Notes under the pieces: generated by a model
Databases searched by the model: none
The model's input: the letters and a program-made list of their open reading frames with translations, nothing else
Told to the model about the DNA's origin: nothing
Source: Candidatus Melainabacteria bacterium
GTDB lineage: Bacteria; Cyanobacteriota; Vampirovibrionia; 2-02-FULL-35-15
Direction: 5' to 3'
DNA length: 64,000 nucleotides
NCBI GenBank assembly: GCA_023250205.1
Contig: JAHFBE010000001.1
Coordinates: 66,428-130,427 of the forward strand
In this document: positions 361-56,835 of the stretch, one piece after another
How the letters are laid out: each line of letters starts with the position of its first letter
How positions within the stretch are numbered: the first letter of the stretch is position 1
Position numbers and translations under genes: made by a program

Positions 361-458
361 ATTGCGAGCCAAACGAAGTGAGGCGTGGCAATCCAAATCG
401 TTTTACACAAGTTAGAACGGGATTGCTTCGTCGCTAATGCTCCTCGCAATGACAAATT
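361..458. repeat. Two adjacent copies (opposite orientation) of the short imperfect palindromic element family (…ATTGCGAGCC…GGCAAT… / GATTGCTTCGTCG…CTCCTCGCAATGACA).
   Basis: Shares the ATTGC…GCAATGACA motif with the elements at 10338, 12062, 32104 and 56432. Intergenic, upstream of pdxJ. Confidence 0.6.
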
Positions 459-578
459 TGCAATAAAAAAAGAACCTTGCGGTTCCTTATATTTCTTCTT
501 TAATTTAACGTGAATATATTATTCCACGCCAGGTGGCCTTTATAACATGGGGTATACCTGAAAAAAATAAAGGATTGT

Positions 579-1325
579 TTAACTTGCCAGCAGTTTCATT
601 TCTCGAACAGCTTCTTTAATACCAACTATTACTGCCCTGCTAATAACAGAATGTCCTATATGAAGTTGTTCTATATCTGGCAGTTTTGCTATTGCTGCTG
701 TATTTTGATAATTCAACCCATGCCCTGCATTTATTTTTAAACCTATGCTTTTCCCAAATTCAATTGCTTCTTTTACTGTACTTAATTCTTTATCATTTGG
801 ATTTTCAGCATATGGTCCTGTATGAACTTCTATAAAATCAGCTCCTATTTCTTTTGCAATTTGTATTTGTTCTTTATCAGCATTTATAAAAATGCTTATT
901 GTTAAATTCTTTTTATGTAATTTTTCTAAGTATTCAGTTAAATATTTTTTTTGACCCGTTACATTTAACCCACCTTCAGTAGTTAATTCTTGTCTCTTTT
1001 CTGGCACAAGCGTAATAAGTCCAGGCTTTATTTTTGATACAATTTCAAGCATTTCATCTGTAGCTGCCATCTCCAAGGTAAAGAGAACAGAGTTACTAAT
1101 GTCATCCTGAGTTTTAGCAAAGGACTCAGAATGACATAGAAGCTGGCTAAGCAAAAGGACATCTCTATCATTTATATGTCTTCTATCTTCGCGCAGATGA
1201 ACAGTTATACCATCAGCTCCACCTTCAATTGCAAGCTTTGCTCCTAATATAGGATCGGGCTCTATAGTTTTTCTGGCTTCCCGTACAGTAGCAATATGAT
1301 CAATATTTATACATAGTTTTGGCAT
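579..1325 (-). CDS. pdxJ: Pyridoxine 5'-phosphate synthase PdxJ. The ORF-track start at 1364 overlaps tyrA; the likely true start is ATG at 1325 (MPKLCINIDH…).
   Basis: Motifs INIDHIATVREAR and GADGITVHLREDRRHINDRDV match the PdxJ signature. Carries a ~15-aa insertion relative to E. coli PdxJ, encoded by a palindromic element. Confidence 0.9.
   Translation of the reverse strand: MPKLCINIDHIATVREARKTIEPDPILGAKLAIEGGADGITVHLREDRRHINDRDVLLLSQLLCHSESFAKTQDDISNSVLFTLEMAATDEMLEIVSKIKPGLITLVPEKRQELTTEGGLNVTGQKKYLTEYLEKLHKKNLTISIFINADKEQIQIAKEIGADFIEVHTGPYAENPNDKELSTVKEAIEFGKSIGLKINAGHGLNYQNTAAIAKLPDIEQLHIGHSVISRAVIVGIKEAVREMKLLAS
1100..1136. repeat. 37-nt imperfect palindrome TGTCATCCTGAGT…ACTCAGAATGACA embedded in-frame in pdxJ. 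It encodes CHSESFAKTQDD on the minus strand.
   Basis: Inverted termini TGTCAT/ATGACA are shared with the intergenic element family. Sits exactly where this PdxJ is ~15 aa longer than E. coli PdxJ (between RDV and LEMA). Confidence 0.6.
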
Positions 1326-1358
1326 ATAGAAATTATAGCGATAATCTCTGTAGAAACA

Positions 1359-2312
1359 TTGCATACAACGTATCTACAGAATATAATGTTTCAGATGACA
1401 TTCAAAAATAATATAAAAAATATAGCAATAATCGGACTTGGTTTAATTGGTGGATCACTTGCAAAAGCTTTAAAAGGAAAAGGCTTCTCAATTACAGGAA
1501 TCACAAAGAGTCCTAAAACAATAAGACTAGCACTTAAAGAAAAAGCTATTTCAAGAGGTTTTACAAAGTTAAGTTCAAAGGCATTAGAAAATATAGATAT
1601 TGTTTTTATTTGTACTCCACTACCTCTGATAAAAGATTATTTAAATAAAATTTCAAAGTTAAATTTAAAAAATAGGATTATTATTACTGATGTTGGAAGT
1701 ACAAAGTCAGAGATTTGCAAATATGCAAAGAAAATTTTCTCCACTCAATACTCCATACCCCATACTCAATACTCATTCATAGGCGGTCATCCAATGGCAG
1801 GTACTGAAAAATCAGGATTCACTGCATCAGAAAAAGATTTATTTAAAAATCGTGCCTGGATACTAACTCCTACAAAAAAAGACAATTCCACCCTTAATAA
1901 ACTCAAAACAATAATTAACAAAGTGGGCGGGATTCCAATAATAACCACACCTGAAGAACATGATCGAGCAGTAGCACTTGTTAGTCACTTACCTCTACTT
2001 GCATCAATAGGACTTTGTCAGATTACAAAAGAATCTAATTTTAATAAATTAGCATCAATAATTGCTTCTAGCGGATTTAGAGATACCACAAGAATTGCTG
2101 GAGGGAATTCAGAAATGAATTCTAATCTTTTACTTTCAAATTCAATTGAGCTACAAAAATTGTTACCCGTATATTTAAAAGGATTAAATAATCTCCTTAA
2201 AATGGCAAAAACAAAATCAACAAATTTGTATAAGAAATTAAATATTGTAAGTGATTGGAGGAACCAGCTTTACAATTCAAGAGGGAAAAACAATCTTTTA
2301 AAAACATGGTAG
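1359..2312 (+). CDS. tyrA: Prephenate/arogenate dehydrogenase (TyrA family). The true start is probably an internal Met (MFQMTFKNN… near 1388).
   Basis: Rossmann motif IAIIGLGLIGGSLA and GGHPMAGTEKSG. The ORF-track start overlaps the divergent pdxJ. Confidence 0.8.
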   Translation: MHTTYLQNIMFQMTFKNNIKNIAIIGLGLIGGSLAKALKGKGFSITGITKSPKTIRLALKEKAISRGFTKLSSKALENIDIVFICTPLPLIKDYLNKISKLNLKNRIIITDVGSTKSEICKYAKKIFSTQYSIPHTQYSFIGGHPMAGTEKSGFTASEKDLFKNRAWILTPTKKDNSTLNKLKTIINKVGGIPIITTPEEHDRAVALVSHLPLLASIGLCQITKESNFNKLASIIASSGFRDTTRIAGGNSEMNSNLLLSNSIELQKLLPVYLKGLNNLLKMAKTKSTNLYKKLNIVSDWRNQLYNSRGKNNLLKTW

Positions 2313-10337: not shown

Positions 10338-10377
10338 TGTCATTGCTTCGCCTCACGTTGTTCGGCTCGCAATGACA
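10338..10377. repeat. 40-nt palindromic element TGTCATTGCTTCGCCTCACGTTGTTCGGCTCGCAATGACA.
   Basis: Near-perfect inverted termini TGTCATTGC/GCAATGACA. Begins 1 nt after the fliR stop. Confidence 0.75.
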
Positions 10378-10401: not shown

Positions 10402-10833
10402 ATGAAGCTGACTACTAAAGGACAATATGCTATTCAAGCAATGATTGACATTTCCATTCATTGTGCAAAATCAAAAGATCCTATTTCATTGCGTGAAATA
10501 GCAAATAACCAGAACATTCCTCTTCCATTCCTAGAACAAATTGCAATAAAATTAAGGCGTGCAGGCTTAATAAAAAGTACTAGAGGTCCTTCGGGAGGGT
10601 ACATTTTATCAAGGGACAAAAAACAAATATCTCTTGCCAGTATTATGGAAGCTGTAGAAGGACCAATTAACATTGCTCCAAATACCGGCAAAGATTATGA
10701 TGTAACTGTCCAACTCTGGCAAAAATTAAACAGGAGTATCCTTACTATTTTAAAATCAATAACATTAGAAGACCTATACTACGACTCAATAAGTTTTAAG
10801 GCTTCAAAAGACAACCAGGTTTATGTCCAATAA
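10402..10833 (+). CDS. Rrf2-family transcriptional regulator (IscR-like).
   Basis: The N-terminal wHTH matches Rrf2 (GQYAIQAMIDI…SLREIANNQNIPLPFLEQIAIKLRRAGLIKSTRGPSGGY). Precedes and overlaps the cysteine desulfurase. Confidence 0.85.
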   Translation: MKLTTKGQYAIQAMIDISIHCAKSKDPISLREIANNQNIPLPFLEQIAIKLRRAGLIKSTRGPSGGYILSRDKKQISLASIMEAVEGPINIAPNTGKDYDVTVQLWQKLNRSILTILKSITLEDLYYDSISFKASKDNQVYVQ

Positions 10834-12115
10834 CAAAAAAACAATATACGCAGATAATAGTGCAACCACAAAAGTAAGAGATGAAGTTGCAGAAGTCATG
10901 CTTACAGTTTTAAAAGAAGATTATGGAAATCCATCAAGCATACATCAATATGGGAGAAAGGCTAAATCCTGTTTAGAAGAAGCCCGAAACAACATCTCCT
11001 CATTACTCAACTCAGATGAAAAACAAATACTTTTTACAAGCGGTGGAACAGAGTCAAATAATCTAGTAATTTTTGGCATTTCCAAAATGTGGGAAGAAGG
11101 TGCTTTTAAAGCAAAAGAGAAACATATTATGACCACAAAAACAGAACATCCATCTATTAAAGAACCTCTTGAATATCTTGAAAACAAAGGCTGGAACATT
11201 ACCTGGCTTAATGTTAATAATGAAGGGTTTATTGATCTGGAAGAACTGAAGGCTAAGATCTCTTCAAAAACGTTGCTTGTATCAATAATTCATGCAAACA
11301 ATGAAATTGGGACCATTCAAGATTTAAAAACAATTTCAAAGATATGCAAAGAAAATAATGTTTTTTTTCACACCGATGCAGTTCAATCATTCGGAAAACT
11401 TCCCTTTGATTTAAGTACCTTAAATATTGACTTCATGTCAATATCAGGTCACAAAATTTATGGACCAAAAGGAACAGGCGTTTTATATATAAAATCTATA
11501 AATAATTTACCACCTATTTTTATTGGCGGTGGACAAGAAAGAAACCTCAGATCAGGCACTGAGAATCTGGCTGGCATAGTTGGATTTGGTACAGCTGCAA
11601 AATTACTAAATAAAGAGATTATCCCAAATGCACAAAAGCTACGAAAGCTACAAATTGAATTGATGGAAAAATTTTCTAATCTGAATAATATATTAATTAC
11701 AGGTCCAGGACTTGAGAAAGTAAGACAAAATATTCCTATTGAAACTTTTTCTTTCAGACTTCCTGGACACATTAGCATTTGCTGTAAAGGCATTGAAGGA
11801 GAAAGTCTGGTTTTACAACTAGACTTAAATGGAATTGCTGTAAGCTCTGGCTCTGCATGTTCAAGCAATGATTCTTCTGATAGTAAATCTGTAATAAGAC
11901 CTTCACATGTTTTACAAGCATGTGACATTCCTAAAGACTATATAAAAGGATCGTTGAGAATTACCCTTGGAAAAGACAACTCCAAAGAAGAGATTTTACA
12001 AATATTCGAAACAACTCACAATATTATCGAGAATATAAGAAAGAAGAATGCGAATTCTTTACGTCATTGCGAAGAGACACAAAGTGCCGACGAAGCAATC
12101 TCCGAACGTTTATGA
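10823..12115 (+). CDS. Cysteine desulfurase (NifS/IscS family). The C-terminal ~18 aa and the stop codon are supplied by a palindromic element.
   Basis: PLP motif SISGHKIYGPKGTGVLYI plus class V aminotransferase features. The tail …SLRHCEETQSADEAISERL* is encoded by repeat 12062..12156. Confidence 0.88.
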   Translation: MSNNKKTIYADNSATTKVRDEVAEVMLTVLKEDYGNPSSIHQYGRKAKSCLEEARNNISSLLNSDEKQILFTSGGTESNNLVIFGISKMWEEGAFKAKEKHIMTTKTEHPSIKEPLEYLENKGWNITWLNVNNEGFIDLEELKAKISSKTLLVSIIHANNEIGTIQDLKTISKICKENNVFFHTDAVQSFGKLPFDLSTLNIDFMSISGHKIYGPKGTGVLYIKSINNLPPIFIGGGQERNLRSGTENLAGIVGFGTAAKLLNKEIIPNAQKLRKLQIELMEKFSNLNNILITGPGLEKVRQNIPIETFSFRLPGHISICCKGIEGESLVLQLDLNGIAVSSGSACSSNDSSDSKSVIRPSHVLQACDIPKDYIKGSLRITLGKDNSKEEILQIFETTHNIIENIRKKNANSLRHCEETQSADEAISERL

Positions 12116-12156
12116 GATTGCTTCGTCGGTTCTGAAGAACCTCCTCGCAATGACAT
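12062..12156. repeat. Composite of two palindromic-element copies (GTCATTGCGAAG…CGAAGCAATC + GATTGCTTCGTCG…CTCCTCGCAATGACAT) between convergent genes.
   Basis: Same ATTGC…GCAATGACA family. Overlaps the 3' end of the cysteine desulfurase ORF. Possible bidirectional terminator. Confidence 0.7.
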
Positions 12157-12157: not shown

Positions 12158-13009
12158 TCAAGAAGAAATCTTCCTCATAATCTCTTCATATTTTTCTCTA
12201 TGACCAGTTTTTATTGAGAGTTCAAGTGCTCCGGTTAAATCTCCCCACTCTAGCAACTTATCAATTTTCTTGACAGCTTCCTCTTCGTGTAAAGATTCCA
12301 TTTCAAGCTTTTCTTTATGTACTCCTTTGCTAATTTTTAAATCTTTATTTAGAGTTAAAGGAATCAGGCTCCCTTCTCCAATAGTTAATTCTGGTTGTTT
12401 ACGAAAAGCTCTTTCTATAAACGAAAGTCCAATCCCATCAAAACCACCCCAAAAAAAATCTTTAATTCCATTTTGATATGCCGACAATAATCCACTTGCA
12501 AGAAATCCAGCCCCATATCCAATTCCTAATGTTAGAGGTCCACTTGCCGTAGTTAAAGCGGTAACAGATCTTACTGTACTAGCCAGATCACTATTCACAT
12601 GAGGAGGGTAAGCAGACTTAAAATTTGGTGAGCTTGCTGATAATGAAATTTCTCGTCCATCATTTAGATAAAGTTTATCAGTTAAGAATTCAAGAGCCCC
12701 TGCTCTAGATGCTCTTCCAGATTCTGATACTTTTGACACAGAACCTGTAATGAGGAGGTTAGGAGTTTCCTTATCAACTACATTGAATAAGACTTTGCTA
12801 CCTTGCTCAGATTCATTTGAAGATACATCGCTTTTTAAAGCGACATTTATAGTTGTCCCTTTTTTAATAACATCATAAGATTCCAACAAATCAGGCTGGA
12901 CTCTGTATACATCTAAATCTGAGATTTCATTTGCACTAACTGAGGCAACATTGGCACAAAAAAACATAATCAACGTTAAACAAACAGTAAATTTAAAAAT
13001 CCTTACCAT
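12158..13009 (-). CDS. Secreted hypothetical protein (signal peptide), co-oriented with the Wza/Wzc-like genes.
   Basis: N-terminal signal peptide (…ANVASVSA). No recognisable motif. Operonic with the polysaccharide export genes upstream. Confidence 0.45.
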   Translation of the reverse strand: MVRIFKFTVCLTLIMFFCANVASVSANEISDLDVYRVQPDLLESYDVIKKGTTINVALKSDVSSNESEQGSKVLFNVVDKETPNLLITGSVSKVSESGRASRAGALEFLTDKLYLNDGREISLSASSPNFKSAYPPHVNSDLASTVRSVTALTTASGPLTLGIGYGAGFLASGLLSAYQNGIKDFFWGGFDGIGLSFIERAFRKQPELTIGEGSLIPLTLNKDLKISKGVHKEKLEMESLHEEEAVKKIDKLLEWGDLTGALELSIKTGHREKYEEIMRKISS

Positions 13010-17999: not shown

Positions 18000-18319
18000 G
18001 ACAATGTTAGAGCTTATACTCCAGCTTTCTATCTAATAAGAATTCTATATAAATTAAGAGCTTTATAGTTTACGATCAGGATTATCTCTAGCCATTTCAG
18101 CGCTATCCCAGACTATGTTCATAAGATCACAAGTTTAAAGAATTATTCTGAGTATATTAATAATGAAAAGTAAAGTAAAACTTTGATAAGAAATAAACTT
18201 TAACTTTTTATTTATGCTGGTTACCCCTGATTATCTAATAACAAGGGTTAACAATAGGTATATTTGCTCTATCAATTGGGTATGTAAAAATCATGTGTTA
18301 ATTATAGGGAGGTAACTAT

Positions 18320-18481
18320 ATGAACAAATTAGTCCAATTTATAAAAGATGAAGAAGGTGCATCAATGGCCGAATACGCTCTTCTTCTGGGATTAATTACA
18401 GTGGCAATTGCTACAGTAATTACTGCATTTGGATCAAAGCTCAGCACCGTTGTTACAAACGCTACCGGCGTTTTAAAATAA
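18320..18481 (+). CDS. flp: Flp/Fap pilin (53 aa), copy 1 of 3.
   Basis: Manual translation: MNKLVQFIKDEEGASMAEYALLLGLITVAIATVITAFGSKLSTVVTNATGVLK, with the Flp motif G/(A/S)-EY processing site. RBS GGGAGG. Below the ORF-track size cutoff. Confidence 0.85.
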   Translation: MNKLVQFIKDEEGASMAEYALLLGLITVAIATVITAFGSKLSTVVTNATGVLK

Positions 18482-32103: not shown

Positions 32104-32190
32104 TGTCATTGCAAGGAGCCCATTCGCTTCGTCAGCTTTTTCCACCAAGGGTGGACCCGTCCTTCGGCGGGCAAGCCTCCTCACCATGCA
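32104..32190. repeat. Degenerate copy of the palindromic element (TGTCATTGCAAGGAGCC…) with internal hairpins (CCACCAAGGGTGG).
   Basis: Left terminus matches the family. Right terminus is degenerate. Intergenic between pgk and a hypothetical gene. Confidence 0.5.
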
Positions 32191-50400: not shown

Positions 50401-53400
50401 AAAATAGGAAGGATTACTCCAGCCGGTGTGATTACTGAATTTGCAGTTCCAACAAGTAACAGTGGGCTACGTGATATTACTGCTGGACCAGACTGTAATT
50501 TATGGTTCACCGAATTTAATACAGATAAAATTGGAAGAATTACACCTTCTGGAGCAATTTCTGAATTTATTATTCCTATAAGTAGAGGTCCATTAGAAAT
50601 TACTGCTGGTTCAGATGGAAATCTTTGGTTTACTGAAAATACCGGAAATAAAATAGGTAGGATTACTACAAATGGCATACTAACTGAATTTAGTACTCCT
50701 GCTGGTGCAACCGCTCCACCACAAGGCATTACCAAAGGACCAGATGGAAATATCTGGTTTACTGAAAATCCAGGATACTTTATAACTGGTCAGGGAAAGA
50801 TAGGAAGAATCACTCCATCTGGATCAATTTCTGAGTTTAATATTCCTCTGGCAAACATTACAGCACGACCACTTGGAATTGCCACAGGCACTGATGGAAA
50901 TTTATGGTTTGGCGAGGACAGCGGCAAGTTTGGAAAAGTTACTACAAACGGTACAGTAACCTTATTTAATGCTCCTGATTATAATGTAGGTATTACTTCT
51001 GATGCACCTAGTAGCATTGCCACCGGACCAAATGGAAATCTCTGGTTTACTATCTATGGGGCAAATAAGATAGGAAGATATAATTTATGTAATTCCCCAT
51101 CTCCTTCTTTAAGTAATGCTTGTACCCCAAGCAGTACTTCCACTAGCTCATCATCAGGTGGTTCTAATAACTGTGAAATTGAATTTGGAGATGAAAATAT
51201 TGTTAAATACAAAGTTCCAAATGGCAATCCTATAAACATTACAAAAGGTCCAGATTCAAATCTTTGGTTTACTGAAAATCCACTTTACTCTGCTACTAAC
51301 ATGACAGGAAAGATCGGTAAAATCAATGTTGTTGGTTCAATAACTGAGTATAGTACTTCAACACAAACCGCCACCTATAACATAAACAACGGACCTAATG
51401 GCTTCCTCTGGTTTCTATCATCTGCACTAAGTAGAGCAACCACAAATGGAAGCATTACTGAATTCACTAACAATAACTTGCAAGTTGCAACAATCACTGA
51501 TGGTCCTGATGGAAATTTATGGGCAATTGGTTATGATATCTCAGGTCAGTCCTCATACAACAAAATATATAAAGTAAGTCCAGCCACTGGAAATATAATA
51601 GCTGGATATGGTGGTACTACTGATTACAACATAAGATCCTACACTTCTATAACTAAAGGTGTTGACAACAATATATGGTTTACTGAGTATCACGAGTCAT
51701 ATAGTGCAGGTTCATATAATCCTGTTAAAAGATCCATAGTAGGAAAAATTACAACTGCTGGTGAAATTACAGAGTATGCAATTCCTACAGCCGACAGAAA
51801 TATAACTGGCATTTATGCAAGATCCGATGGAAGTCTCTGGTATATTCTGCCAGTAGAAAATAAAATTGGAAGATTTGCTACTAATGGTGTTGTAAATGAA
51901 TTTAATCTTCCTTCAGGTATTTATCAACCAAAAAAACTTACAACAGGACCAGATGGAAATATTTGGTACTCACGATATACTACAGTGGGTAAAATTACCC
52001 CCGATGGAATGATAACTGAATTCTCTCTTCCACAGGGGATGTATGCAACTGATCTTATTACTGGCTTTGATGGAAACTTATGGATTGTAGATAGTTCCGG
52101 TTATATTGCTAAAGTCATTTCCTGCTTTGGTAGCTCTATCTGTGTAGAGAGTTTCTCAAACTATTCTTATGGCTCTACAAACTTTGGATGGAGCATAGAT
52201 CCTAGTGTTGCAGGTTATAATCCAAGAGTAGTACAAATTACTAATTATTATGGGAACTCCGGAAATTCTATTGAACTTAGACCATCTACAACATATAATG
52301 ATCCCGCCGTTATAAGAAAAACAATTCCAGCAGTCAGATATGGTTCATTCAAATTTGACGCACTACCAAATCAAACAACTGGAAACCTTTGTTTAGTGCT
52401 TGGTTCTCAACCAGGAAGCGATAGTTCCTCAATTACAACATGCTTTAGAAATAATGGTCGCTTAGAATATTTATCAGGTTCATCATACCTCCCAATTGGT
52501 TCTACATACAGTGGAATCTATTCAAGCAACACCTGGTACAACATAGAAGTAAAATGGTTTAACGGTAATTTTGATTTTTATGTAAACGGTTCAAAACTAA
52601 ACCCTTCACCTCTTCCTTACTCAGGATTCCAGGATTATCCAATCAACAGTGTTGTTTTAAGAGCAGAAAATTCAGGAGCCTTCTATATAGATAATGTTGT
52701 TGATCCTTATTGTTTTGCTACTTCAACAACATCATCTTCCACATCATCAAGTTCGTCTTCAAGCTCATCATCAGGAGGATATTGTCCACAATGCCAATCT
52801 ACCTGCCCTACCAGCTGTCCTTCTGGAACTATAAATTGTAACGGTTCGTTCTTTTCAGATATTTGTGACTATCAGTCACGGTGGTGTGGATGCACACCAA
52901 GCTCTTCTACATCTACTTCAGGTACTCCTGTTCAGGGATTCTGTGATTCTTTAGGACAGCCTTATTGCAATGATAATATGTCAGTCCCTACCTGTCCTTC
53001 AGGACAGCCTTGTATTAGATGTCTTGGTGGTGGTGCTGCTGGATGTTTTGCAAGTATAACTAGTAGTTTTGCTGAAGAAATTATTTGTGCTCCATATGGC
53101 TCTACTGCTCCAATTTGCATGGCGACTTCTACTTCTTCTAGCAGTGGTGGTGGAGCTCAAGGATTTTGTGATGGTAATGGTCAACCATATTGTACTAATG
53201 GACAAGTACCAACGTGTCCTTATAACAAACCTTGTATTAAATGTCTAGCCAACGGTGCTGCTGATTGCTACGGTGATATTAATGATTATAACGGTGTTTC
53301 CATTACCTGTTCACCATCAGGCACTACCGCTCCAATTTGCATGGCGACTTCTACTTCTTCAACATCTTCTACAACAGGTGGTCAAGGTTTCTGTGATGGT

Positions 53401-53787
53401 AATGGTCAACCATATTGTGACAATGGACAAATACCTACTTGCCCTTATGACAAGCCTTGTATTAAATGTCTAGCAAATGGTTCTGCTGATTGTTACAACG
53501 GTCTAAATGATTATAATGGTGTTTCTGTTACTTGTTCTCCATCAGGGAACACCGCACCAGTTTGCACGGCTACTTCTACATCTTCCACTTCTTCAAGTAC
53601 TGGTGGATCAAATCTCCCAACATGCAGTTCTAACTCATGTAATTTTGGAGGCAGTCCAACATGTCAGTCTGGAACCACAAATTGCTCTTTTGGATTAACA
53701 CCTACCTGTGAATATTACTTTGGTGAATGCAGAGCTATTTGCAGAGGAGAAAATGGATATGATCCTGATGGAGCTTATTGTAATTAA
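38404..53787 (+). CDS. Giant secreted multi-propeller surface protein (5127 aa). Contains two FG-GAP-like propellers, four Kelch-like propellers, four Vgb/NHL-like propellers, two IPT/TIG domains and Cys-rich modules.
   Basis: Single uninterrupted ORF with a signal peptide. Repeats DLNNDNxLDLI (FG-GAP), TSAVWNxxTNKAYIFGG (Kelch-like), GPDGNLWFTE…NKIGKIT…ITEY (Vgb lyase-like), LSPNSGMxG…NGSNFTGATTV (IPT/TIG) and poly-Ser linkers. Confidence 0.85.
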   Translation: MNRFNKIKFVKVVLSLFAVFLFNLPTLAAFNVNYNNLFKLPGNIISDSPSIENALSESTDESQTPQEPEESTSIETPSLSLPSIPTQTINHNQKILDSFSCNPSDKPNSIINFTNKSFNVTNITPSAINTADLNNDNFLDLIILDSSKKYITVVLGTSDGAFNNNRSINTDNSHNKIYVKDLNNDNLLDIILLSKENDTVTILLNQGNNSFSDALHFNTGTSPTALTVGDFNNNGTSDILVINSGDSKASLVLDLNNPVKSIDLDSDSAPTSLTSLDFNNDGNLDLAATSNNNNVTLFTGNGDGSFASSNVISLNSKPISISTADLNNDSVLDLIASVSSTDSNNIAVSLGKSDGTFGNVHYFPVAGLATDFTFANLNGDCNLDIITANNSDNFSILRGNGNGSFAPSIEFPLSSSSVNRGDLNKDGLDDLVFITSDSKVQLLINGKSDSDLATLEPTCKDGDAYCGDGFELNCIDSTNSIGCDPDTGKPGCYDLNLSTFDKTLINTPTCIPKDKSSFLTRTFMANKSTISQKFSFSVSDTNRAYCQDGMTLCANTALSPTCEAGAIRLCTATNNDSEPICLNSSNRRVTIARCGSVSSSSLPTCVDSMSICNNGGTFKCDETSDLKLCPSTNNDSEPLCLNSALHRIRAGLCFLQASSSSSSSGGSSSSSGTQCTPTITIRAETLPSARRGTLAVWNPSTNKAYIFGGGYVNNWFTDIVEYDPATSMVTVRPEVLPQILASGNSAVWNPVTNKAYIFGAINSDTTLCRIIEYDPATSTISYRPEALPLISSTSAVWNTATNKAYIFGGNGSNIIIEYDPATSMVTTRPETLPDSVSYSQTSAAWNPITNKAYIFGGNGSPGFSNKIIEYDPATSMAIIKSETLFSARGLTSAVWNSNTNKIYIFGGVNSSTQLNEIIEYDPATSMVTTRPETFPTGRHWTSAILNPTTNKAYIFGGSDNMVGEINQIVEYTACAGSTTSSSSSSSSSSSSGNIPCSSGASCYLNGGTGTSGQQCPSASLAVCSDGMTPQATGASCYVNGCMGSCYTLCPSSSSSSTTSSSSSSSSSSSSGGLPPPPPQATSNVCIPSFTNTTTPNSIVPVSFAEFTYNNDYDLTGDSINDLIQSQNTTNTFGRVSNISKLFYSSDYIFFTPGDFNNDSKTDIAVSYSEINLSPQSMLSTFLAPTFNETSMINTVGTLQLTSGDYNKDGYIDIALLKYNGISIVPGTGTGLLTGAEVAIPNTPNNDNNYAPVIITTNLNSDNKPDLIVFSDGVITSLINTGNNSFSFSKTQFNINNEVDIPPIVKDFNGDNIPDIALILQSSSFQKYLSILRGNGDGTFTKIIDYSVLYDPGAGGLGSITTGDFNSDNKADLLIASKYDTATVLTGNGDCTFAKALDFNTGEVNTTIVIQSTDFNSDGKLDFIIQDQYKSNYYKFTNNSTCMTGSSSSSSSSSSSSSSSSSSSSSSSSSSSSSSSSSSSSSSSSSSSSGSSSSSGTQCTSSISVRPETFPSGFGTSAIWNSTNNKAYTFGGHNGANQLSTIIEYDNFMITTPAVLPVVRSDSSAVYVPSTNKAYIFGGYNSLNATNNLLNSITEYNFATSAASTRPEVLPSGRSGTCAVLNPTTNKIYIFGGYIINSSSNVIGLNQILEYDPITSMLVVRPETLPAGLNNASAVWNPLTNKAYILGGTVSGVGDSNQILEYDPAISMVTVRTETLPASMNYSYTSAVWNSTANKVYLFAGQGNGYSNEVIEYDPATSTVSTNNATFPTSRSFTSAVWNPITNKAYIFGGANSMVLNEIVEFNPCSGSASSTSSSSSSSSSSSSGSAPLLPVVSSLSPNSGMAGNSININGSNFTGATTVRFGSTNASFQISSSQLISTTIPAGSGAVDVLVTTSAGTSANTANDNFTYLTSSSSSSSGGTVSCNGTSINEFTIPTGNSLPRYIKKGPDGNLWFTETIGNKIGRITPTGSITEFSVPSGPSGITNGPDGNLWFNTASSIGKISTTGTVTSYTVPNSNNSLYDITDGPDGNLWFAEQLGNKIRKITTAGIITEYSVPTASSEPSGITKGPDGNLWFVERMGNKVGKITTAGVITEYLIPTATSRPFLITNGPDGNLWFAESNANKIGKITTAGVITEYTVPTSNCAPFAITAGPDGNIWFTEETGNKIGKITPSGIITEYPVPTPSADLFGITTGPDGNIWFTESIGNKIGKITCSSNSSSSSSSGGSSGGNACCRSGCQLHNFGTAGTQCNGTREQASGSSFNCILPLCPAPGCDYGCCCPSTSSSSSSSGSTGICQAGRYSNTALNWNDANSFCQQGNGSLPTAYDFPINAPTGRYYWSSSCSSNYCTFASPEGNYASSAQTTSNPGNIYAFCLCNSSGSLPSSSSSSGGGTQCTPTVTVRPETFPSGFATSAIWNSTNNKAYTFGGHNGNQLSRIIEYDNFMVVTLPAILPSIRSDTSAAYVPSINKAYIFGGYNSLNATNNLLNSIIEYNFATSIVTTRSEALPSGRSGTCAVLNPTTNKIYIFGGYNGDTQLSQILEYDPITSMLIVRPETLPYGLNNASAVWNPITNKAYIFGGLASDIGYSNRILEYDPATSMVTVRTETLPSAISYTSAVWNSTTNKVYLFAGQDSNEILNKIIEYDPTTSMVTVRTETFPTVRGFTSAIWNPITNKAYIFGGTNNSGILYQIVEFNPCSGSTSSTTSSSSSSSSSSSSSSSSSSSSGQQACTPAQWASSASANNSYSSYPASNIIGAPQCTGCNICSSPDPTSSVWLNEIANQAAIVEVTFPSPAIADSILIREAYYPGFVKSITLKDQNDNQIGNIINVNDTSSCPDNYNLIIPFPRTSALVAKVLINTLPQSSYSVIDAVQLRCSGVTSSSSSSSSSSSSSSSSSGSCTVGMITEFTVPTSNSSPWDITTGPDGNLWFTEQQRNKIGKITTNGAITEFDIPGSPSNITAGADGNLWFTEGSRNKIGKILIDGTVTEFTIPIASVNPHGITLGPDGNLWFTGPGYGAGGEKNILGSITTNGNIILFTTPTLNSGPYNITKGPDGNLWFTEYYANKIGKISTAGIITEFSIPTPNSYPQNITTGPDGNLWFTEVGGDKIGRITIGGSISEFTIPTANSDPNGITKGPDGNLWFTEPTANKIAWITTNGSFNEFSLPISSSAPWKITTGPDGNLWFTEWYGNKIGRITSCSLTTTSSSSSSSGSGCNLAGAGISCSGALTVDSAPSYCSFIGNYCNHNYWCCTSSSSSSSSGSTNSCSDSDGGNNRNILGTVTYMLNGQSGSSTDYCNNGTNTSCSGTSCTQVEFFCSGTTVASSVTACSNCNNGICVSSSSGSTLPAVSSLSPNSGMSGSTININGSNFTGATTVMFGSTNAGFVLSSSQLISATVPAGSGTVDVLVTTSAGTSANTANDNFTYLTSSSSSSSSSSSSSSGSATCSPSITTKSEVLPSIRRLTSAVWNSSTNKAYIFGGDNGSSSATNQILEYNPSTSAVSARPETLPTGRQYTSAIFNTLTNKAYIFGGASTAGYLNEILEYDLNTFMIVNKGTLPAARLGTSAIWNPNTNKAYIFGGFEETGSSISQIVEYNLNTFTTSIRPETLPSARMYTSAVFNPKTNKAYIFGGFSNSTSINEIIEYDLATFMITTKSERLPQTIYGSSAVWNSTTDKAYVVGGFSQTAPVNQIFEYNPTAGTAIGRQELLPPTLHFASAVWNSSNNKAYIFGGQSNNVSTNQILEFNPCISSSSSGLTCTTSANCPIGTCTNGMTYQRYNCTNGQCIQINYVTDPCSSSSSSSSSGNILCSSGGSCYLNGGTGTSGQQCPSASLAYCSNGTTPTPTGASCTISGCMGSCYTSCPSSSSSSSGISTCTTSTNCPLGTCPNGMTYQRYSCINGQCIQANYLVDPCSSSGSSGSNTCVSGTFSDFSYSSLGNWDGGSYDIVYGPDGNFWFTDIYNNRIGRMTPAGIVDFFTVTTTNSQPRYITRGSDGNLWFTETTANKIGRITPAGVITEFAVPTSNSGLRDITAGPDCNLWFTEFNTDKIGRITPSGAISEFIIPISRGPLEITAGSDGNLWFTENTGNKIGRITTNGILTEFSTPAGATAPPQGITKGPDGNIWFTENPGYFITGQGKIGRITPSGSISEFNIPLANITARPLGIATGTDGNLWFGEDSGKFGKVTTNGTVTLFNAPDYNVGITSDAPSSIATGPNGNLWFTIYGANKIGRYNLCNSPSPSLSNACTPSSTSTSSSSGGSNNCEIEFGDENIVKYKVPNGNPINITKGPDSNLWFTENPLYSATNMTGKIGKINVVGSITEYSTSTQTATYNINNGPNGFLWFLSSALSRATTNGSITEFTNNNLQVATITDGPDGNLWAIGYDISGQSSYNKIYKVSPATGNIIAGYGGTTDYNIRSYTSITKGVDNNIWFTEYHESYSAGSYNPVKRSIVGKITTAGEITEYAIPTADRNITGIYARSDGSLWYILPVENKIGRFATNGVVNEFNLPSGIYQPKKLTTGPDGNIWYSRYTTVGKITPDGMITEFSLPQGMYATDLITGFDGNLWIVDSSGYIAKVISCFGSSICVESFSNYSYGSTNFGWSIDPSVAGYNPRVVQITNYYGNSGNSIELRPSTTYNDPAVIRKTIPAVRYGSFKFDALPNQTTGNLCLVLGSQPGSDSSSITTCFRNNGRLEYLSGSSYLPIGSTYSGIYSSNTWYNIEVKWFNGNFDFYVNGSKLNPSPLPYSGFQDYPINSVVLRAENSGAFYIDNVVDPYCFATSTTSSSTSSSSSSSSSSGGYCPQCQSTCPTSCPSGTINCNGSFFSDICDYQSRWCGCTPSSSTSTSGTPVQGFCDSLGQPYCNDNMSVPTCPSGQPCIRCLGGGAAGCFASITSSFAEEIICAPYGSTAPICMATSTSSSSGGGAQGFCDGNGQPYCTNGQVPTCPYNKPCIKCLANGAADCYGDINDYNGVSITCSPSGTTAPICMATSTSSTSSTTGGQGFCDGNGQPYCDNGQIPTCPYDKPCIKCLANGSADCYNGLNDYNGVSVTCSPSGNTAPVCTATSTSSTSSSTGGSNLPTCSSNSCNFGGSPTCQSGTTNCSFGLTPTCEYYFGECRAICRGENGYDPDGAYCN
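42736..42867 (+). repeat. 15-bp tandem repeat (TCTTCTTCTAGTAGC) × ~8.8, encoding an in-frame poly-Ser linker inside the giant gene.
   Basis: Perfect tandem copies read directly. Confidence 0.9.
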
Positions 53788-54824: not shown

Positions 54825-54833
54825 TAAATACAT

Positions 54834-55124
54834 TTATCTTGGTGGTGGTGATAAAACTTGATTTAAAAGGGTTAAATTTTCTGTAAATTGTCTTATATCT
54901 CCACCTCTATCTATAGCAGTAGGAATATAAATATCCCTTGTTAAGCCTCTTTCCCCTGTAAATTGGGTTATATGATCTGGAGTAAGACCTAGTTTCGGTA
55001 ATCGATTTATTTGTCCTAAAGTATTAGTCCTCTCTACATCATTTGTAGAGTTTATATAGCCAGATACTAATCTTCCTCTTTGGTATTGAACTGCTAATCT
55101 TACCTGCCCTGCTATGTCAACCAT
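54834..55124 (-). CDS. Hypothetical protein (96 aa).
   Basis: ORF only. Confidence 0.25.
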   Translation of the reverse strand: MVDIAGQVRLAVQYQRGRLVSGYINSTNDVERTNTLGQINRLPKLGLTPDHITQFTGERGLTRDIYIPTAIDRGGDIRQFTENLTLLNQVLSPPPR

Positions 55125-55233
55125 AAATTTTAATTTCTCCTTTGCTCTTTTCCAAATAATACAAAGGTTATTCCAAAAGAAATTGACATTAAATCAAAGC
55201 GTTTTCCTCTTTTCTAGGAAAGATTAGATAACT

Positions 55234-56031
55234 TCAAAGACAACCATGTTTTTTTTGTATATATTCTACAGTTTCTGAATATAAGGTTGTAACTAAATCC
55301 TCGTTACCATCTGTAAGAGACTTTACAAGGTCTGCTAAAACCTTATTTCTTTCTACAGCTTTTTGTACATCTTCCTTATATAAAGATTGTGGTTTTACAG
55401 TTCCCTCTAAACGCGTCAAAAATTCACGAATAAAATCAGCTAATTCTTGCTTACTTAATGGATTGGTTCGCATTTGATAATTATCATTATCAGGATCTCC
55501 CATTAAACTTTTAGCAGTTTCAAAAATCGCATAACGATATGTTTCATCAAAAAATTCTTTATCTTTCTTTTTATCCCCTGTTCTATATAGAGCCAATCTT
55601 TCATCCTTATAAACAATTTCTGCAATAATTGCAGGACTCTTTAAAGCCATTGGATCCCATTCGTTATCCAGAATTGCCTTATATAAGGACTGTGCCTCTA
55701 CAGAAAAAATCTCATCTGCTCCAGCCTCTTGCAGATTTGTTGACTGTTTTATACCAAGAACGGCTCTGTATAAATTTTCTGCTAATCCCCTATCTCCATG
55801 TGTAATTCCAGCTGTAGTAGCCTGTAATTCTCTAGTACTACTAACTAATTCAGCAATTTCTTTAGGAGTACTGATCGGATGTCCGGTTTCTTTAGCAACT
55901 ATCTGTAATTCATTTCTAAAATAATCAACTGCACTTAAGCTAATATTTGATGGAACAGTTTTTATCACCACCATAGTAAACAATCCTTTCCTAAAATCTA
56001 TTGAAGCTATACTCACAAATATATGCCTCAA
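55234..56031 (-). CDS. Hypothetical protein (265 aa).
   Basis: ORF only. No recognisable motif. Confidence 0.4.
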   Translation of the reverse strand: MRHIFVSIASIDFRKGLFTMVVIKTVPSNISLSAVDYFRNELQIVAKETGHPISTPKEIAELVSSTRELQATTAGITHGDRGLAENLYRAVLGIKQSTNLQEAGADEIFSVEAQSLYKAILDNEWDPMALKSPAIIAEIVYKDERLALYRTGDKKKDKEFFDETYRYAIFETAKSLMGDPDNDNYQMRTNPLSKQELADFIREFLTRLEGTVKPQSLYKEDVQKAVERNKVLADLVKSLTDGNEDLVTTLYSETVEYIQKKHGCL

Positions 56032-56061
56032 AGTTATCTTTTATATAAATTAGGATTTATA

Positions 56062-56835
56062 CTAACACACGTATTTCAAGGTTGCAAATTTTTCAGCCAA
56101 TGAATTTAGTGACTCAAAACTCAGTTTCTTAACCAAAGGTATTTTCATAAGGCATTTAACCTTTGTAAGTTTAGAAATTACATCTGGAGCAGTTTTTATA
56201 ACTGGATCATTAAGGGTTTCATCATAAGCAGAAACTATAAACCCTAAAATATTTAAGTCCTTTTGCTTTGCAAATTCAATGGTTAAGACCGAATGGTTAA
56301 TCGTTCCCAGTGACGAACGCGAAACAATAATCACAGGATAGTTTAGATCTTTAATCAGATCAGCTACCAAATAGGTGTCATTGTGAGGAGATGCACTAGC
56401 ACCGATGCGACAATCTCTTAACGTTTTTGAGATTGCTTCGTCGTCCGCCATAAGCGGACTCCTCGCAATGACGTGATCAGTAATCGGTACTGCCACTCCA
56501 CCAATTCCTTCCACAATTACACAATCAAATTCTTTTTCTAAGTTTCTAATATCTAAAATAATTTTTTCTAAATCAATCTTTTTATTTTCATGTTCAGCTG
56601 AAATTATCGGTGCCGCAGGGAGAGAAAAACTATATGTATTAAAAATAGGAATTTTATTTCCTGTTAACTCTTTCAAAAAATCTGTATCTTTCGGAAAACC
56701 TGTCTGAATCGGCTTTGAAATACAAACTTTTTTACCTTCATTATGAAGTGAAATAGCAAGCAATGCACTAAAAATACTTTTACCAACACCAGTATCAGTA
56801 CCCGTTATAAAAATGTTTTTTAAACTGCTTATCAC
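56062..56835 (-). CDS. bioD: Dethiobiotin synthetase BioD. Likely starts at GTG 56835. Contains an in-frame palindromic-element insertion.
   Basis: P-loop (I)FITGTDTGVGKS and downstream BioD motifs (PVIIVSRSSLGTINHSVLT). The ORF-track start at 56889 runs through the ftsZ terminator hairpin. The GTG at 56835 with RBS AGGAGAG gives a canonical N-terminus. Confidence 0.85.
   Translation of the reverse strand: MISSLKNIFITGTDTGVGKSIFSALLAISLHNEGKKVCISKPIQTGFPKDTDFLKELTGNKIPIFNTYSFSLPAAPIISAEHENKKIDLEKIILDIRNLEKEFDCVIVEGIGGVAVPITDHVIARSPLMADDEAISKTLRDCRIGASASPHNDTYLVADLIKDLNYPVIIVSRSSLGTINHSVLTIEFAKQKDLNILGFIVSAYDETLNDPVIKTAPDVISKLTKVKCLMKIPLVKKLSFESLNSLAEKFATLKYVC
56432..56474. repeat. Palindromic element copy (GATTGCTTCGTCGTCCGCCATAAGCGGACTCCTCGCAATGACG) inside the bioD coding sequence, translated in-frame.
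   Basis: Same family as 421..458 and 12116..12156. Coincides with the extra residues …SPLMADDEAISKTLRDC… relative to typical BioD. Confidence 0.65.

What the first reader, a model, noticed from the sequence alone, without database searches (positions are those of the whole stretch)
361..56474. Family of short palindromic elements (termini TGTCAT…ATGACA) inserted in-frame in housekeeping genes, resembling Rickettsia palindromic elements
At least seven copies of a 37-95 nt imperfect palindrome with conserved termini lie in this window. Coordinates: 361..458 (two copies), 1100..1136, 10338..10377, 12062..12156 (two copies), 32104..32190 and 56432..56474.

Three copies sit inside reading frames without disrupting them. 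(a) 1100..1136 lies within pdxJ and encodes CHSESFAKTQDD, exactly where this PdxJ is ~15 aa longer than E. coli PdxJ between the RDV and LEMA motifs. (b) 56432..56474 lies within bioD and adds …SPLMADDEAISKTLRDC…. (c) 12062..12120 forms the last ~18 codons and the stop codon of the cysteine desulfurase (…SLRHCEETQSADEAISERL*).

In-frame proliferation of selfish palindromic elements within protein-coding genes is classically described for Rickettsia RPEs. Finding a similar phenomenon in an unrelated AT-rich lineage would be notable. The elements also sit at gene boundaries (fliR stop, the convergent iscS/secreted-gene pair) where they may act as terminators.
Basis: partly seen in the sequence, partly recalled or inferred. 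Interest (0 to 1): 0.8.

Follow-up and report, generated by a model that had tools for sequence, protein, structure and literature searches.

The report
In-frame hairpin repeats, GIY-YIG-linked family
This Melainabacteria genome carries short hairpin-forming DNA repeats, relatives of the Rickettsia and Neisseria repeats cut by small GIY-YIG nucleases, and three copies sit in-frame inside vitamin B6, biotin and iron-sulfur genes; this is a new member of a known kind.

Summary
The window holds seven units (~35-45 nt) of one repeat, (C/T)GTC-ATTGC-GAGGA-[variable hairpin]-GACGAA-GCAAT-C. They form three inverted doublets (357-455, 12062-12155, 56376-56472) and one single unit (10338-10377). There is also a decayed remnant (32104-~32190) and a collapsed doublet of a sister family in pdxJ (1100-1136).

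PdxJ and BioD carry the inserts in-frame, and the doublet supplies the IscS tail. For PdxJ and BioD, close relatives have empty sites and the inserts model as disordered loops; for IscS, one relative's product is 28 residues shorter.

The elements are not lineage-specific. The exact motif occurs in at least 120 GTDB genome loci across many phyla and in at least 120 IMG/VR contigs. Their architecture matches the CGTC-tagged REP superfamily (Di Nocera 2013), which includes Rickettsia RPE-4/RPE-6 and Neisseria dRS3, and the Ssn-related motifs of Chenal 2025.

New here:
- This ATTGC family escapes the published SRM pattern.
- In 80 metagenome loci, a highly conserved 95-aa GIY-YIG gene sits between two inverted units of this family.
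- In bioD of related Melainabacteria the same codon is filled, empty, or filled by an NTS-type doublet.

A terminator role is not supported. Verdict: new member of a known kind, moderate interest.

The parts
357..394 (+). Unit (variant head TGTTATTGC; centre GCC-AAACGAAGTGA-GGC), left half of an intergenic inverted doublet
   Evidence: nhmmer E=8.5e-6; sequence. An orthologous doublet lies downstream of pdxJ in relative L205 at 10828-10925.
419..455 (-). Unit TGTCATTGCGAGGAGCATTAGCGACGAAGCAATCCC, right half of doublet 357-455, lying just beyond pdxJ's own terminator
   Evidence: nhmmer E=2.1e-9. Terminator-like hairpin plus T-run at 469-488(-).
1100..1136 (-). Collapsed doublet of the sister family (GTCATTCTGAG...CTCAGGATGAC), in-frame in pdxJ. 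Part of an 18-codon loop LLCHSESFAKTQDDISNS, where the relative L205 has 4 codons
   Evidence: Empty site in L205. Relatives at 79-85% identity lack it. Sister family seen 36 times in fetched loci against ~4 expected. DNA hairpin z=-5.4. AF2 pLDDT <50 at residues 68-77, between helix 53-64 and strand 81-86.
579..1325 (-). pdxJ (pyridoxine 5'-phosphate synthase), host gene of the 1100-1136 insert
   Evidence: E=1.2e-70 to E. coli PdxJ 1m5w; P0001 is 100% identical.
10338..10377 (-). Single unit with GTC on both sides (TGTCATTGC-TTCGCC..GGCTC-GCAATGACA), starting directly after the fliR stop codon. Most simply explained as a doublet collapsed by deletion between the two ATTGC repeats
   Evidence: E=6e-7. 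DNA hairpin -9.9 kcal/mol, z=-4.1. FliR identity from PF01311 on the L205 ortholog. Only a degenerate head remains at the same place in L205.
12062..12102 (+). Unit CGTCATTGCGAAGAGACACAAAGTGCCGACGAAGCAATCTC. Encodes IscS residues 414-427 (RHCEETQSADEAIS)
   Evidence: E=7e-8. IscS homology to solved structures ends near residue 407. The relative's IscS is 402 aa.
12103..12113 (+). Doublet spacer (CGAACGTTTAT; the conserved TGA junction and the right-hand unit follow from 12113-12114). Supplies IscS codons ERL, and the stop codon TGA (12113-12115) directly abuts the right unit
   Evidence: The TGA|GATTGC junction is the common stop-codon/right-unit junction of the GIY-YIG genes. The link between the two is an inference.
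12114..12155 (-). Unit TGTCATTGCGAGGAGGTTCTTCAGAACCGACGAAGCAATCTC. Ends 2-3 nt before the stop of the convergent ORF 12158-13009
   Evidence: E=4.8e-9. The whole doublet folds at -30 kcal/mol, z=-6.7.
32104..32190 (+). Decayed doublet remnant between divergent pgk (30837-32087, -) and ORF 32197-32601 (+). Only the head TGTCATTGCAAGGAG is still recognisable
   Evidence: E=1.5, head only; fold z=-1.9.
56376..56417 (+). Unit with a compensated outer stem (ATTGT/ACAAT). It is the half of the bioD doublet that lies downstream in the sense of bioD transcription
   Evidence: E=7.8e-4.
56429..56472 (-). Unit CGTCATTGCGAGGAGTCCGCTTATGGCGGACGACGAAGCAATCTC. With the spacer and the 56376-56417 unit it forms a 99-nt (33-codon) in-frame insert in bioD (HVIARSPLMADDEAISKTLRDCRIGASASPHND)
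   Evidence: AF2 pLDDT about 45-56 across residues ~121-154 while the core is >90. The doublet folds with z=-5.2.
56062..56826 (-). bioD (dethiobiotin synthetase), host gene of the doublet
   Evidence: P0121 100% identical; PF13500/PF01656.
10823..12115 (+). iscS/nifS-type cysteine desulfurase whose C-terminal 17 codons and stop codon come from the doublet

Best explanation
The elements are single-strand-DNA hairpin repeats of the CGTC-tagged REP / Ssn-related-motif kind.

Each unit is oriented: a (C/T)GTC tag, a 5-bp outer stem ATTGC/GCAAT, a purine-rich internal loop (GAGGA / GACGAA), a free-sequence inner hairpin, and a C after the palindrome. Units mostly occur as head-outward inverted doublets with a short spacer.

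In the autonomous form of this family the spacer holds a 95-aa single-domain GIY-YIG nuclease gene. By analogy with SsnA of Neisseria and Wolbachia, the nuclease is inferred to bind the hairpin as ssDNA and cut next to the GTC tag. The gene-less doublets in this window are the non-autonomous derivatives.

They landed in, or were retained only at, places where they do no harm: just past stop codons, between convergent genes, and in-frame in disordered surface loops of PdxJ and BioD. In IscS the doublet replaced the native C-terminal tail and supplies the stop codon.

Copies decay by internal deletion (collapsed doublets in pdxJ and after fliR) and by whole-element loss.

Shown: repeat family, hairpin covariation, in-frame positions, empty sites, GIY-YIG association, cross-phylum spread.
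Inferred: that the GIY-YIG enzyme recognises or cleaves this variant, that it mobilises the repeats, and that the source genome encodes it.
For: Repeat reality.

Hairpin structure. On 73 units from many phyla the proposed structure has 82% of cells paired against 69% in shuffles. 11 of 13 pairs show changes on both sides, 0 of 500 shuffles reach the observed values, and slid registers give 20-52%. Compensated outer stems exist: ATCGC/GCGAT x11, ACTGC/GCAGT x4, and ATTGT/ACAAT in the window itself.

Recognition determinants. GTC before and C after the palindrome are near-invariant. Chenal 2025 found these positions critical for SsnA cleavage and binding.

GIY-YIG link.
- L064 has unit - 95-aa PF01541 ORF (E=2.7e-15) - inverted unit.
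- In 80 metagenome loci encoding this GIY-YIG clade, an oriented unit tail lies within 90 nt upstream in 56/77 and an inverted unit downstream in 44/76. Control windows give 5/112 and 3/112.
- A looser test gives 64/78, 65/78 and both sides in 53/76.
- Over-long annotated homologs begin with element-encoded peptides.

Spread. The exact motif occurs in at least 120 GTDB loci from Alphaproteobacteria, Bacteroidota, Chloroflexota, Patescibacteria, Zixibacteria, Ignavibacteriota, Rickettsiales and others. The GIY-YIG clade is 70-80% identical across phyla.

In-frame tolerance. Empty sites are seen. The inserts are the only low-confidence parts of otherwise confident AF2 models.

Turnover. Outside the insert, bioD is 86% identical between the window (filled) and L121 (empty), and 91% between L327 (filled) and L328 (empty, same metagenome). 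Filled-filled pairs are only 78-80% identical. L206 carries an NTS-type doublet at the same codon.

Literature frame: PMC3733652 and PMC11893778.
Against: - No GIY-YIG gene was found in the window or in about 55 kb of related Melainabacteria loci. It is therefore unknown whether this genome has the partner enzyme.
- The published SRM search pattern matches none of the 73 units. Nobody has shown an Ssn enzyme cutting an ATTGC-type hairpin.
- I could not test whether this GIY-YIG clade belongs to cd10448. Its only solved relatives are UPF0213 proteins at E=8e-5.
- Transposition by Ssn enzymes has never been demonstrated, even for NTS. Chenal 2025 show a role in limiting transformation instead.
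- No target-site duplication or clear target motif could be defined.
- Units within the window differ in their centres, so there is no sign of a very recent burst.
Confidence: 0.72

Rival explanations
1. They are REP/REPIN elements of the classical kind, mobilised by a RAYT (an IS200/IS605-type Y1 transposase).
For: Inverted doublets with a short spacer that fold into one long hairpin are exactly the REPIN architecture. Hairpins recognised as ssDNA are the substrate of Y1 transposases.
Against: The tag is CGTC/TGTC, not GTAG. Di Nocera 2013 found no RAYT flanked by CGTC repeats. The gene found between inverted units here is a GIY-YIG nuclease in 53/76 loci, not a Y1 transposase. No recurrent transposase-like neighbour appeared in 120 loci.
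Confidence: 0.04
2. They are ordinary MITEs: deletion derivatives of a DDE-type insertion sequence with terminal inverted repeats TGTCAT...ATGACA, moved in trans by its transposase.
For: Inverted termini, small size, many copies, and insertion polymorphism between relatives.
Against: Single oriented units occur on their own. No target-site duplication is visible at filled or empty sites. The conserved parts include sub-terminal and internal positions with base-pair covariation. The same 24 specified bases are conserved from 33% to about 65% GC genomes in many phyla, unlike lineage-bound IS termini. The only gene found inside is a 95-aa GIY-YIG.
Confidence: 0.04
3. Their main role is at the RNA level for the host: terminators, mRNA 3'-end stabilisers or regulatory hairpins at gene ends. 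The intragenic copies are accidents.
For: Four of six loci are at gene boundaries, two of them directly after stop codons. The E1 doublet is conserved at the orthologous place in a relative with 80% identical PdxJ. REPs in E. coli can stabilise upstream mRNA (established knowledge).
Against: No element is followed by a T-run or scored as terminator-like, and pdxJ has a separate canonical terminator. SsnA does not bind RNA (Chenal 2025). One remnant lies in a divergent promoter region. The closest BioD relative (L121) has no unit in 15.5 kb of syntenic DNA. This reading can coexist with the main explanation as a secondary effect.
Confidence: 0.12
4. The extra residues in PdxJ and BioD are native variable loops, and the palindromic look is coincidental.
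For: Both sites are variable in length among relatives.
Against: The bioD insert matches the cross-phylum unit profile at E=3e-8 and 7.8e-4. It is the same sequence as the intergenic copies. Relatives at 85-91% identity have clean empty sites. A different known repeat (NTS-type) fills the same site in L206.
Confidence: 0.01

Closest known systems
CGTC-tagged REPs (CGTC-1 to CGTC-4; Di Nocera, De Gregorio & Rocco 2013, PMC3733652), which include Rickettsia conorii RPE-6 (CGTC-1), RPE-4 (CGTC-4) and Neisseria dRS3
   Same: A CGTC/TGTC tag at one end. A stem beginning with AT. A short tail after the palindrome (CCA in Alphaproteobacteria, CTC/CCC here). Mostly head-to-head dimers with 20-100 nt spacers. 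Placement next to 3' ends and between convergent genes. Intragenic in-frame singles and dimers encoding 8-30 residues. No transposase gene associated.
   Different: The stem is not a perfect 8-9 bp helix with a 4-5 nt loop. It is a 5-bp outer stem, a purine-rich internal loop and a variable inner hairpin. The encoded peptides (VIARS..ATKQS, SLRG..RRSNL, HCEE..DEAIS / DCFV..LLAMT, LLRR..APRND) are absent from the paper's list of intragenic REP peptides. Melainabacteria were not among the hosts listed. I could not see the paper's Figure 2, so I cannot exclude that a Bradyrhizobium 'CGTC-1 with different loops' variant corresponds to this family.
NTS / Ssn-related motifs with the GIY-YIG ssDNA nuclease SsnA (Chenal et al. 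2025, PMC11893778)
   Same: An oriented hairpin with GTC upstream and C downstream of the palindrome. Hundreds of copies per genome in many phyla. A small single-domain GIY-YIG gene flanked on both sides by inverted repeats (42% both sides in the paper; 53/76 here).
   Different: The published SRM pattern HGTCWYN(0-2)YYVSBRHN(0-5)WNVSBRGN(0-2)RNCYNB matches 0 of 73 units. Cleavage of this variant is untested. Only 2% of NTS copies are inside genes in N. meningitidis, whereas 3 of 6 loci here touch coding sequence.
Rickettsia palindromic elements RPE-1 (Ogata et al. 2000; from my own knowledge and as cited in PMC3733652)
   Same: Palindromic repeats inserted in-frame in housekeeping genes at positions compatible with the fold.
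   Different: RPE-1 is about 100-150 bp, Rickettsia-specific and unrelated in sequence. The elements here are shorter, modular (unit or doublet) and cross-phylum.
REPIN-RAYT systems (Bertels & Rainey 2011; Nunvar 2010)
   Same: The doublet is the probable replicating unit. A single-copy enzyme gene is flanked by the repeats. Singlets look like decay products.
   Different: REPIN-RAYT systems have a GTAG tag and a Y1 HUH transposase, and are mostly vertically inherited and lineage-specific. Here the partner is a GIY-YIG nuclease, and both the repeat and the enzyme are nearly identical across phyla.

Membership tests
CGTC-tagged REP superfamily (Di Nocera 2013) | Unpaired CGTC (or TGTC/CCTC) tetranucleotide at one end of the stem-loop | tested here: met
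   All 7 window units start CGTC or TGTC, except one TGTT. G2 and T3 are invariant and C4 is at least 90% conserved in 73 units.
CGTC-tagged REP superfamily (Di Nocera 2013) | Stem of 8-9 bp beginning with complementary A-T pairs, and a loop of 4-5 nt | tested here: inconclusive
   The stem does begin AT(T)...(A)AT. However, it is 5 bp, then an internal loop, then a variable inner helix. The short variant ATTGC-GA-GCGAAGC-GAA-GCAAT comes closest.
CGTC-tagged REP superfamily (Di Nocera 2013) | Short unpaired tail (consensus CCA) and predominance of head-to-head dimers | tested here: met
   Tails are CCA, CCC or CTC. Three of four intact loci in the window, and most of 137 matches in GTDB loci, are inverted doublets.
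Ssn-related motifs (Chenal 2025) | Match to the degenerate SRM search sequence | tested here: not met
   0 of 73 units and none of the window elements match. The pattern does hit the NTS-type unit in L206.
Ssn-related motifs (Chenal 2025) | Repeats flank a single-domain GIY-YIG (ssn) gene on one or both sides | tested here: met
   Upstream 56/77 and downstream 44/76, against 5/112 and 3/112 in control windows. Both sides in 53/76. L064 example. Shown for the family, not for the source genome.
Ssn-related motifs (Chenal 2025) | The GIY-YIG partner belongs to CDD family cd10448 / is homologous to N. meningitidis SsnA | not testable with these tools
   Neither CDD nor an SsnA sequence was available. 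Pfam gives only PF01541. The best PDB relative is the UPF0213 protein 1zg2 at E=7.9e-5.
Ssn-related motifs (Chenal 2025) | The hairpin is bound and cleaved as ssDNA by the cognate nuclease | not testable with these tools
   Needs biochemistry.
Rickettsia palindromic elements (RPE families) | Sequence membership in a named RPE family | tested here: inconclusive
   The element peptides hit no NCBIfam or Pfam model. Bona fide RPE-4 and RPE-6 peptides used as positive controls also hit nothing, so this test has no power. The peptides differ from the RPE-4/RPE-6 peptides listed in PMC3733652.
Rickettsia palindromic elements (RPE families) | In-frame insertion in conserved genes, with orthologs lacking the insert | tested here: met
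   PdxJ; BioD; IscS tail.
REPIN/RAYT | GTAG tag and a flanked Y1 (RAYT) transposase gene | tested here: not met
   The tag is CGTC/TGTC and the flanked gene is a GIY-YIG.
MITE | Terminal inverted repeats with target-site duplication; a parent IS with a transposase | tested here: not met
   No duplication is visible at filled versus empty junctions. No IS-type transposase recurs next to the elements.
Rfam RNA families | Match at gathering score | tested here: not met
   No match in the window. In 10 element-bearing loci the only hit was a tRNA.

The most novel reading that the evidence does not exclude
Unit-GIY-YIG-unit modules may be a cross-phylum class of single-strand DNA transposons whose 'transposase' is a 95-aa GIY-YIG nuclease, with the gene-less doublets as their non-autonomous copies. 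On this reading they insert and excise precisely. That would explain why one codon of bioD in Melainabacteria 87-91% identical to each other is found empty, filled with an ATTGC-type doublet, or filled with an NTS-type doublet. It would also answer the long-open question of what spreads CGTC-type REPs and Rickettsia RPE-4/6.
Probability: 0.3. Interest if true: 0.8.

Novelty: new member of a known kind. Interest (0 to 1): 0.5.

Why it matters
In-frame palindromic repeats are known from Rickettsia and from the 2013 REP survey. The hairpin-nuclease pairing is known from the 2025 Ssn paper. The finding is therefore not a new kind of thing.

It adds three useful points:
1. A very widespread repeat family, found in many phyla and in viral contigs, is invisible to the published SRM search pattern. 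Yet it has the clearest IS-like arrangement with a highly conserved GIY-YIG gene.
2. Such repeats are translated parts of core enzymes in Melainabacteria, the non-photosynthetic sister group of Cyanobacteria.
3. The bioD site shows three states among near relatives, two of them in one metagenome. This gives concrete material for asking whether these elements insert and excise, and with what junctions. That question has been open since CGTC REPs were found to lack a transposase.

Tried and rejected
- Rfam at gathering threshold, on the window and on 10 element-bearing loci: nothing relevant.
- Pfam and NCBIfam scans of element-encoded peptides: no hits. The positive controls also failed, so the result is uninformative.
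- Full-text search for the DNA strings: only unrelated primers.
- Clustering of ORFs next to the motif in 120 GTDB loci: no recurrent neighbour. The partner gene is rare relative to the repeats and was found only by a GIY-YIG motif scan.
- A family-agnostic hairpin detector (GTC + 5-mer ... reverse complement) was no better than shuffled sequence in this AT-rich DNA and was dropped.
- Look-ups of the window's own PdxJ to identify the assembly and extend the contig failed. The source MAG is therefore known only as Melainabacteria, by homology.
- A search for target-site duplications at bioD and pdxJ junctions gave nothing unambiguous.
- The terminator hypothesis was tested and not supported.
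- A second GIY-YIG type flanked by NTS units, which would have linked the clade to bona fide Ssn, was not present in the fetched loci.
- A 2026 preprint mentioning SsnA and hairpin repeats could not be opened.
I could not search Melainabacteria genomes for the GIY-YIG gene.

Full report
**What is in the sequence**

Reading the stated coordinates shows one recurring oriented unit of about 35-45 nt. Written on its purine-rich strand it is (C/T)GTC-ATTGC-GAGGA-[variable centre]-GACGAA-GCAAT-C.

The motif CTCGCAATGAC with at most 1 mismatch occurs 8 times in 64 kb against 0.38 expected; 0 of 100 shuffles reach that. ATTGCTTCGTCG with at most 2 mismatches occurs 8 times against 2.15 expected.

A profile built from 73 units finds seven units at E <= 8e-4. 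Of the 73, 66 come from other genomes and 7 from this window, so the window units match partly by construction. The seven are 357-394(+), 419-454(-), 10342-10377(-), 12062-12102(+), 12114-12155(-), 56376-56417(+) and 56429-56472(-). A head fragment lies at 32104-32120.

The units form:
- three inverted, head-outward doublets (357-455, 12062-12155, 56376-56472);
- one single unit (10338-10377);
- one decayed remnant (32104-~32190).

The pdxJ element (1100-1136) has a different core, GTCATTCTGAG...CTCAGGATGAC. It belongs to a sister family, GTCAT(T/C)CTGAG..GAAG(A/G)ATC, with the same layout and a compensated outer stem. That family gives 36 hits in the fetched loci against about 4 expected.

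The window is about 33% G+C, whereas the conserved blocks of the units are G+C-rich by eye (not computed).

**Host and genes**

PdxJ, BioD and the IscS/NifS-type desulfurase are confirmed against solved structures. The closest database proteins are from Candidatus Melainabacteria MAGs. The syntenic loci L121, L123 and L205 show the same gene order.

**In-frame insertions**

PdxJ. The window protein has 15 residues more than E. coli PdxJ, between RDV...L and LEMA. Relatives at 79-85% identity have a short loop there, and some carry other, unrelated inserts. At DNA level L205 reads ...AGT CAA | AGT ATA AAA AAT GTT..., while the window has 18 codons that include the palindrome.

BioD. A 99-nt, 33-codon insert (HVIARSPLMADDEAISKTLRDCRIGASASPHND) lies between VPITD and (T)YLV. 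The nearest relative, P0127/L121, has the empty site ACTGAT|AACTAT.

IscS. Homology to solved desulfurases ends near residue 407. Residues 414-427 are encoded by the left unit, and residues 428-430 plus the TGA stop by the spacer. The ortholog in L205 is annotated at 402 aa against 430 aa here. I could not fetch its 3' end.

AlphaFold2 models are confident for both enzymes: BioD pLDDT 86.9 and PdxJ 89.7. The exception is the insert in each. BioD residues ~121-154 have pLDDT about 45-56. PdxJ residues 68-77 are below 50 (as, separately, are residues 112-115).

The PdxJ insert lies in a helix-to-strand loop (H53-64 to E81-86). In TIM barrels this is the face opposite the catalytic strand-to-helix loops; that follows from established knowledge of the fold and was not measured here.

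**Hairpin structure**

An alignment of 73 units from many phyla fits a structure with three parts: a 5-bp outer stem, an internal loop, and an inner helix of free sequence.
- 82% of cells are paired against 69% in shuffles.
- 11 of 13 pairs show changes on both sides.
- 0 of 500 shuffles reach the observed values.
- Slid registers give 20-52%.

The outer stem was used to select the units, so only the inner-helix result is unbiased. All eight inner pairs co-vary.

Compensated outer stems also occur: ATCGC/GCGAT x11, ACTGC/GCAGT x4, and ATTGT/ACAAT in the window's own 56376 unit. Doublets fold into long DNA hairpins with z = -5.2 and -6.7.

**Not a lineage-specific family**

The hosts include:
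- Bradyrhizobium and many other Alphaproteobacteria;
- Pedobacter, Chryseobacterium and Mucilaginibacter;
- Anaerolineae, Patescibacteria, Zixibacteria, Ignavibacteriota, Omnitrophica, Desulfobacterales and Verrucomicrobia;
- Rickettsiales, including Tisiphia and a Rickettsia endosymbiont.

Most of these copies are inverted doublets with 15-25 nt spacers. The pattern also hit the 120-locus limit in IMG/VR.

**What is known**

Di Nocera et al. 2013 (PMC3733652) defined CGTC-tagged REPs. Their features are a CGTC/TGTC tag, a stem beginning with AT, a CCA tail and mostly head-to-head dimers. They were found in five phyla.

The paper equates R. conorii RPE-6 and RPE-4 with CGTC-1 and CGTC-4, and Neisseria dRS3 with CGTC-1. 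It lists many intragenic in-frame copies and found no dedicated transposase.

Chenal et al. 2025 (PMC11893778) studied the Neisseria NTS (CGTCATTCCCGCGMAVGCGGGAATCYRG) and related 'SRM' hairpins. They reported the following:
- These hairpins are bound and cut, as ssDNA only, by small GIY-YIG nucleases (the Ssn family).
- The ssn genes are typically flanked by the repeats.
- The three bases before the palindrome govern cleavage.
- The C after the palindrome governs binding.

The ATTGC family keeps the GTC and the C almost invariantly. It nevertheless fails the published SRM pattern: 0 of 73 units match, although the pattern does hit the NTS-type unit in L206. Its encoded peptides are not among those listed in 2013.

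**The partner gene**

A GIY-YIG motif scan of all fetched loci found one ORF, in L064. It is 95 aa, PF01541 at E=2.7e-15, and lies exactly between two inverted ATTGC units.

Its homologs are 70-80% identical across Firmicutes, Dehalococcoidia, Nostocales and other Cyanobacteria, Desulfobacteraceae, WOR-3 and KSB1. Over-long gene calls begin with element-encoded peptides such as VSLRG..RRSNL..EIAS..ARND.

In 80 metagenome loci with this gene:
- a correctly oriented unit lies within 90 nt upstream in 56/77;
- an inverted unit lies within 90 nt downstream in 44/76;
- control windows 510-600 nt away give 5/112 and 3/112;
- a looser test gives both sides in 53/76.

The right unit often begins straight after the stop codon (TGA|GATTGC). 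The same junction closes the IscS reading frame in the window. It is tempting, but only an inference, that the doublet spacers are what remains after loss of the nuclease gene.

I did not find the gene in the window or in the related Melainabacteria loci. I had no scans left to search their genomes.

**Turnover at bioD**

Outside the insert, bioD DNA identities are as follows.

| Pair | States | Identity |
|---|---|---|
| window vs L121 | filled vs empty | 86% |
| L327 vs L328 (same metagenome, ERZ27280021) | filled vs empty | 91% |
| L206 vs L327 and L328 | NTS-type doublet vs filled / empty | 87% |
| window, L123, L327 among themselves | filled vs filled | 78-80% |

L206 carries a textbook NTS-type doublet at the same codon: TGTCATTCCCATGAACATGGGAATCCAG ... 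CTGGATTCCCGCTTTTGCGGGAATGACA.

The three ATTGC-type inserts share three features: the spacer (CTC(A/C)AAAACGTTA), the centre of the right unit (GGTGCTA..GCA), and the flanks (GAT CAY ... ). Unit centres are otherwise free. I therefore favour one old insertion followed by repeated clean, in-frame losses, plus a separate NTS-type insertion at the same site.

Short derivatives in other relatives fit loss by internal deletion: YVIVRNEVTNND in P0148 and SVSPCND in P0150. So do the collapsed doublets in pdxJ and after fliR.

Repeated site-specific gain, or transfer of the insert by recombination between lineages, cannot be excluded. No target-site duplication is evident.

**Function at gene ends**

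No element is scored terminator-like. pdxJ has its own hairpin plus T-run at 469-488, between its stop codon and the doublet.

The placement, tight against stop codons and between convergent genes, matches what was described for CGTC REPs. It may simply reflect where insertions are harmless.

The doublet downstream of pdxJ is conserved at the orthologous place in L205. This is compatible either with slow decay or with some local use.

**Verdict**

The elements belong, by architecture and by their GIY-YIG partner, to the known CGTC-REP / Ssn-motif kind. They form a family that current search patterns miss, in a phylum where this had not been reported in the literature I could search.

Mobilisation by the nuclease, and its presence in this genome, remain inferences.

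Noticed in passing
window 38404-53787 (+): A single 5127-codon ORF built from many diverged copies of ~150-nt and ~126-nt repeats (peptide motifs like NKAYIFGG and GPDGNLWFTE, resembling Kelch-like and NHL/beta-propeller-like blades). The blocks are separated by Ser-rich linkers, including a perfect 15-nt tandem array at 42734-42868. Orthologous giant genes follow the arginase gene in L121 and L123.
   Followed up: no
L064 252-621 (Bacillota MAG JAMDEM010000089.1) and L125-L204: An IS-like module: ATTGC unit, 95-aa GIY-YIG gene, inverted ATTGC unit. The nuclease clade is 70-80% identical across very distant phyla, which suggests frequent horizontal transfer.
   Followed up: partly
L207-L286 and further loci up to about L326 (IMG/VR contigs): The exact unit pattern occurs in at least 120 viral or proviral contigs, some with 3-4 copies. 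I did not check whether these are true phage genomes or host flanks.
   Followed up: no
PdxJ relatives P0009, P0012, P0014, P0055, P0058, P0090 (alignment A1, columns 85-125): The same PdxJ loop carries other, unrelated inserts in relatives (YQGRINPAP-type, and a 43-residue insert in P0058). These look like translations of other repeat families, so this loop may be a recurrent landing or tolerance site.
   Followed up: no
window 35528-35559 (+), inside ORF 35356-37788: The only hit of the published SRM pattern in the window, TGTCTTGTCCCCAAGAATTCCCCGGGGCCCCG. It is a G+C-rich 32-mer in a 33% G+C genome, with no obvious hairpin, and is probably a chance match.
   Followed up: no
window 469-488 (-): A canonical intrinsic terminator (AAGGAACCGCAAGGTTCTTT + TTTTATT) directly downstream of pdxJ and upstream of the repeat doublet.
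   Followed up: yes
window 18319-19083: Three direct copies of a ~163-nt segment (73-74% identity, spacing 343 and 259 nt), reported by the repeat finder and not examined.
   Followed up: no
L327 and L328 (both from ENA assembly ERZ27280021): Filled and empty bioD alleles, 91% identical outside the insert, coexist in one metagenome.
   Followed up: partly
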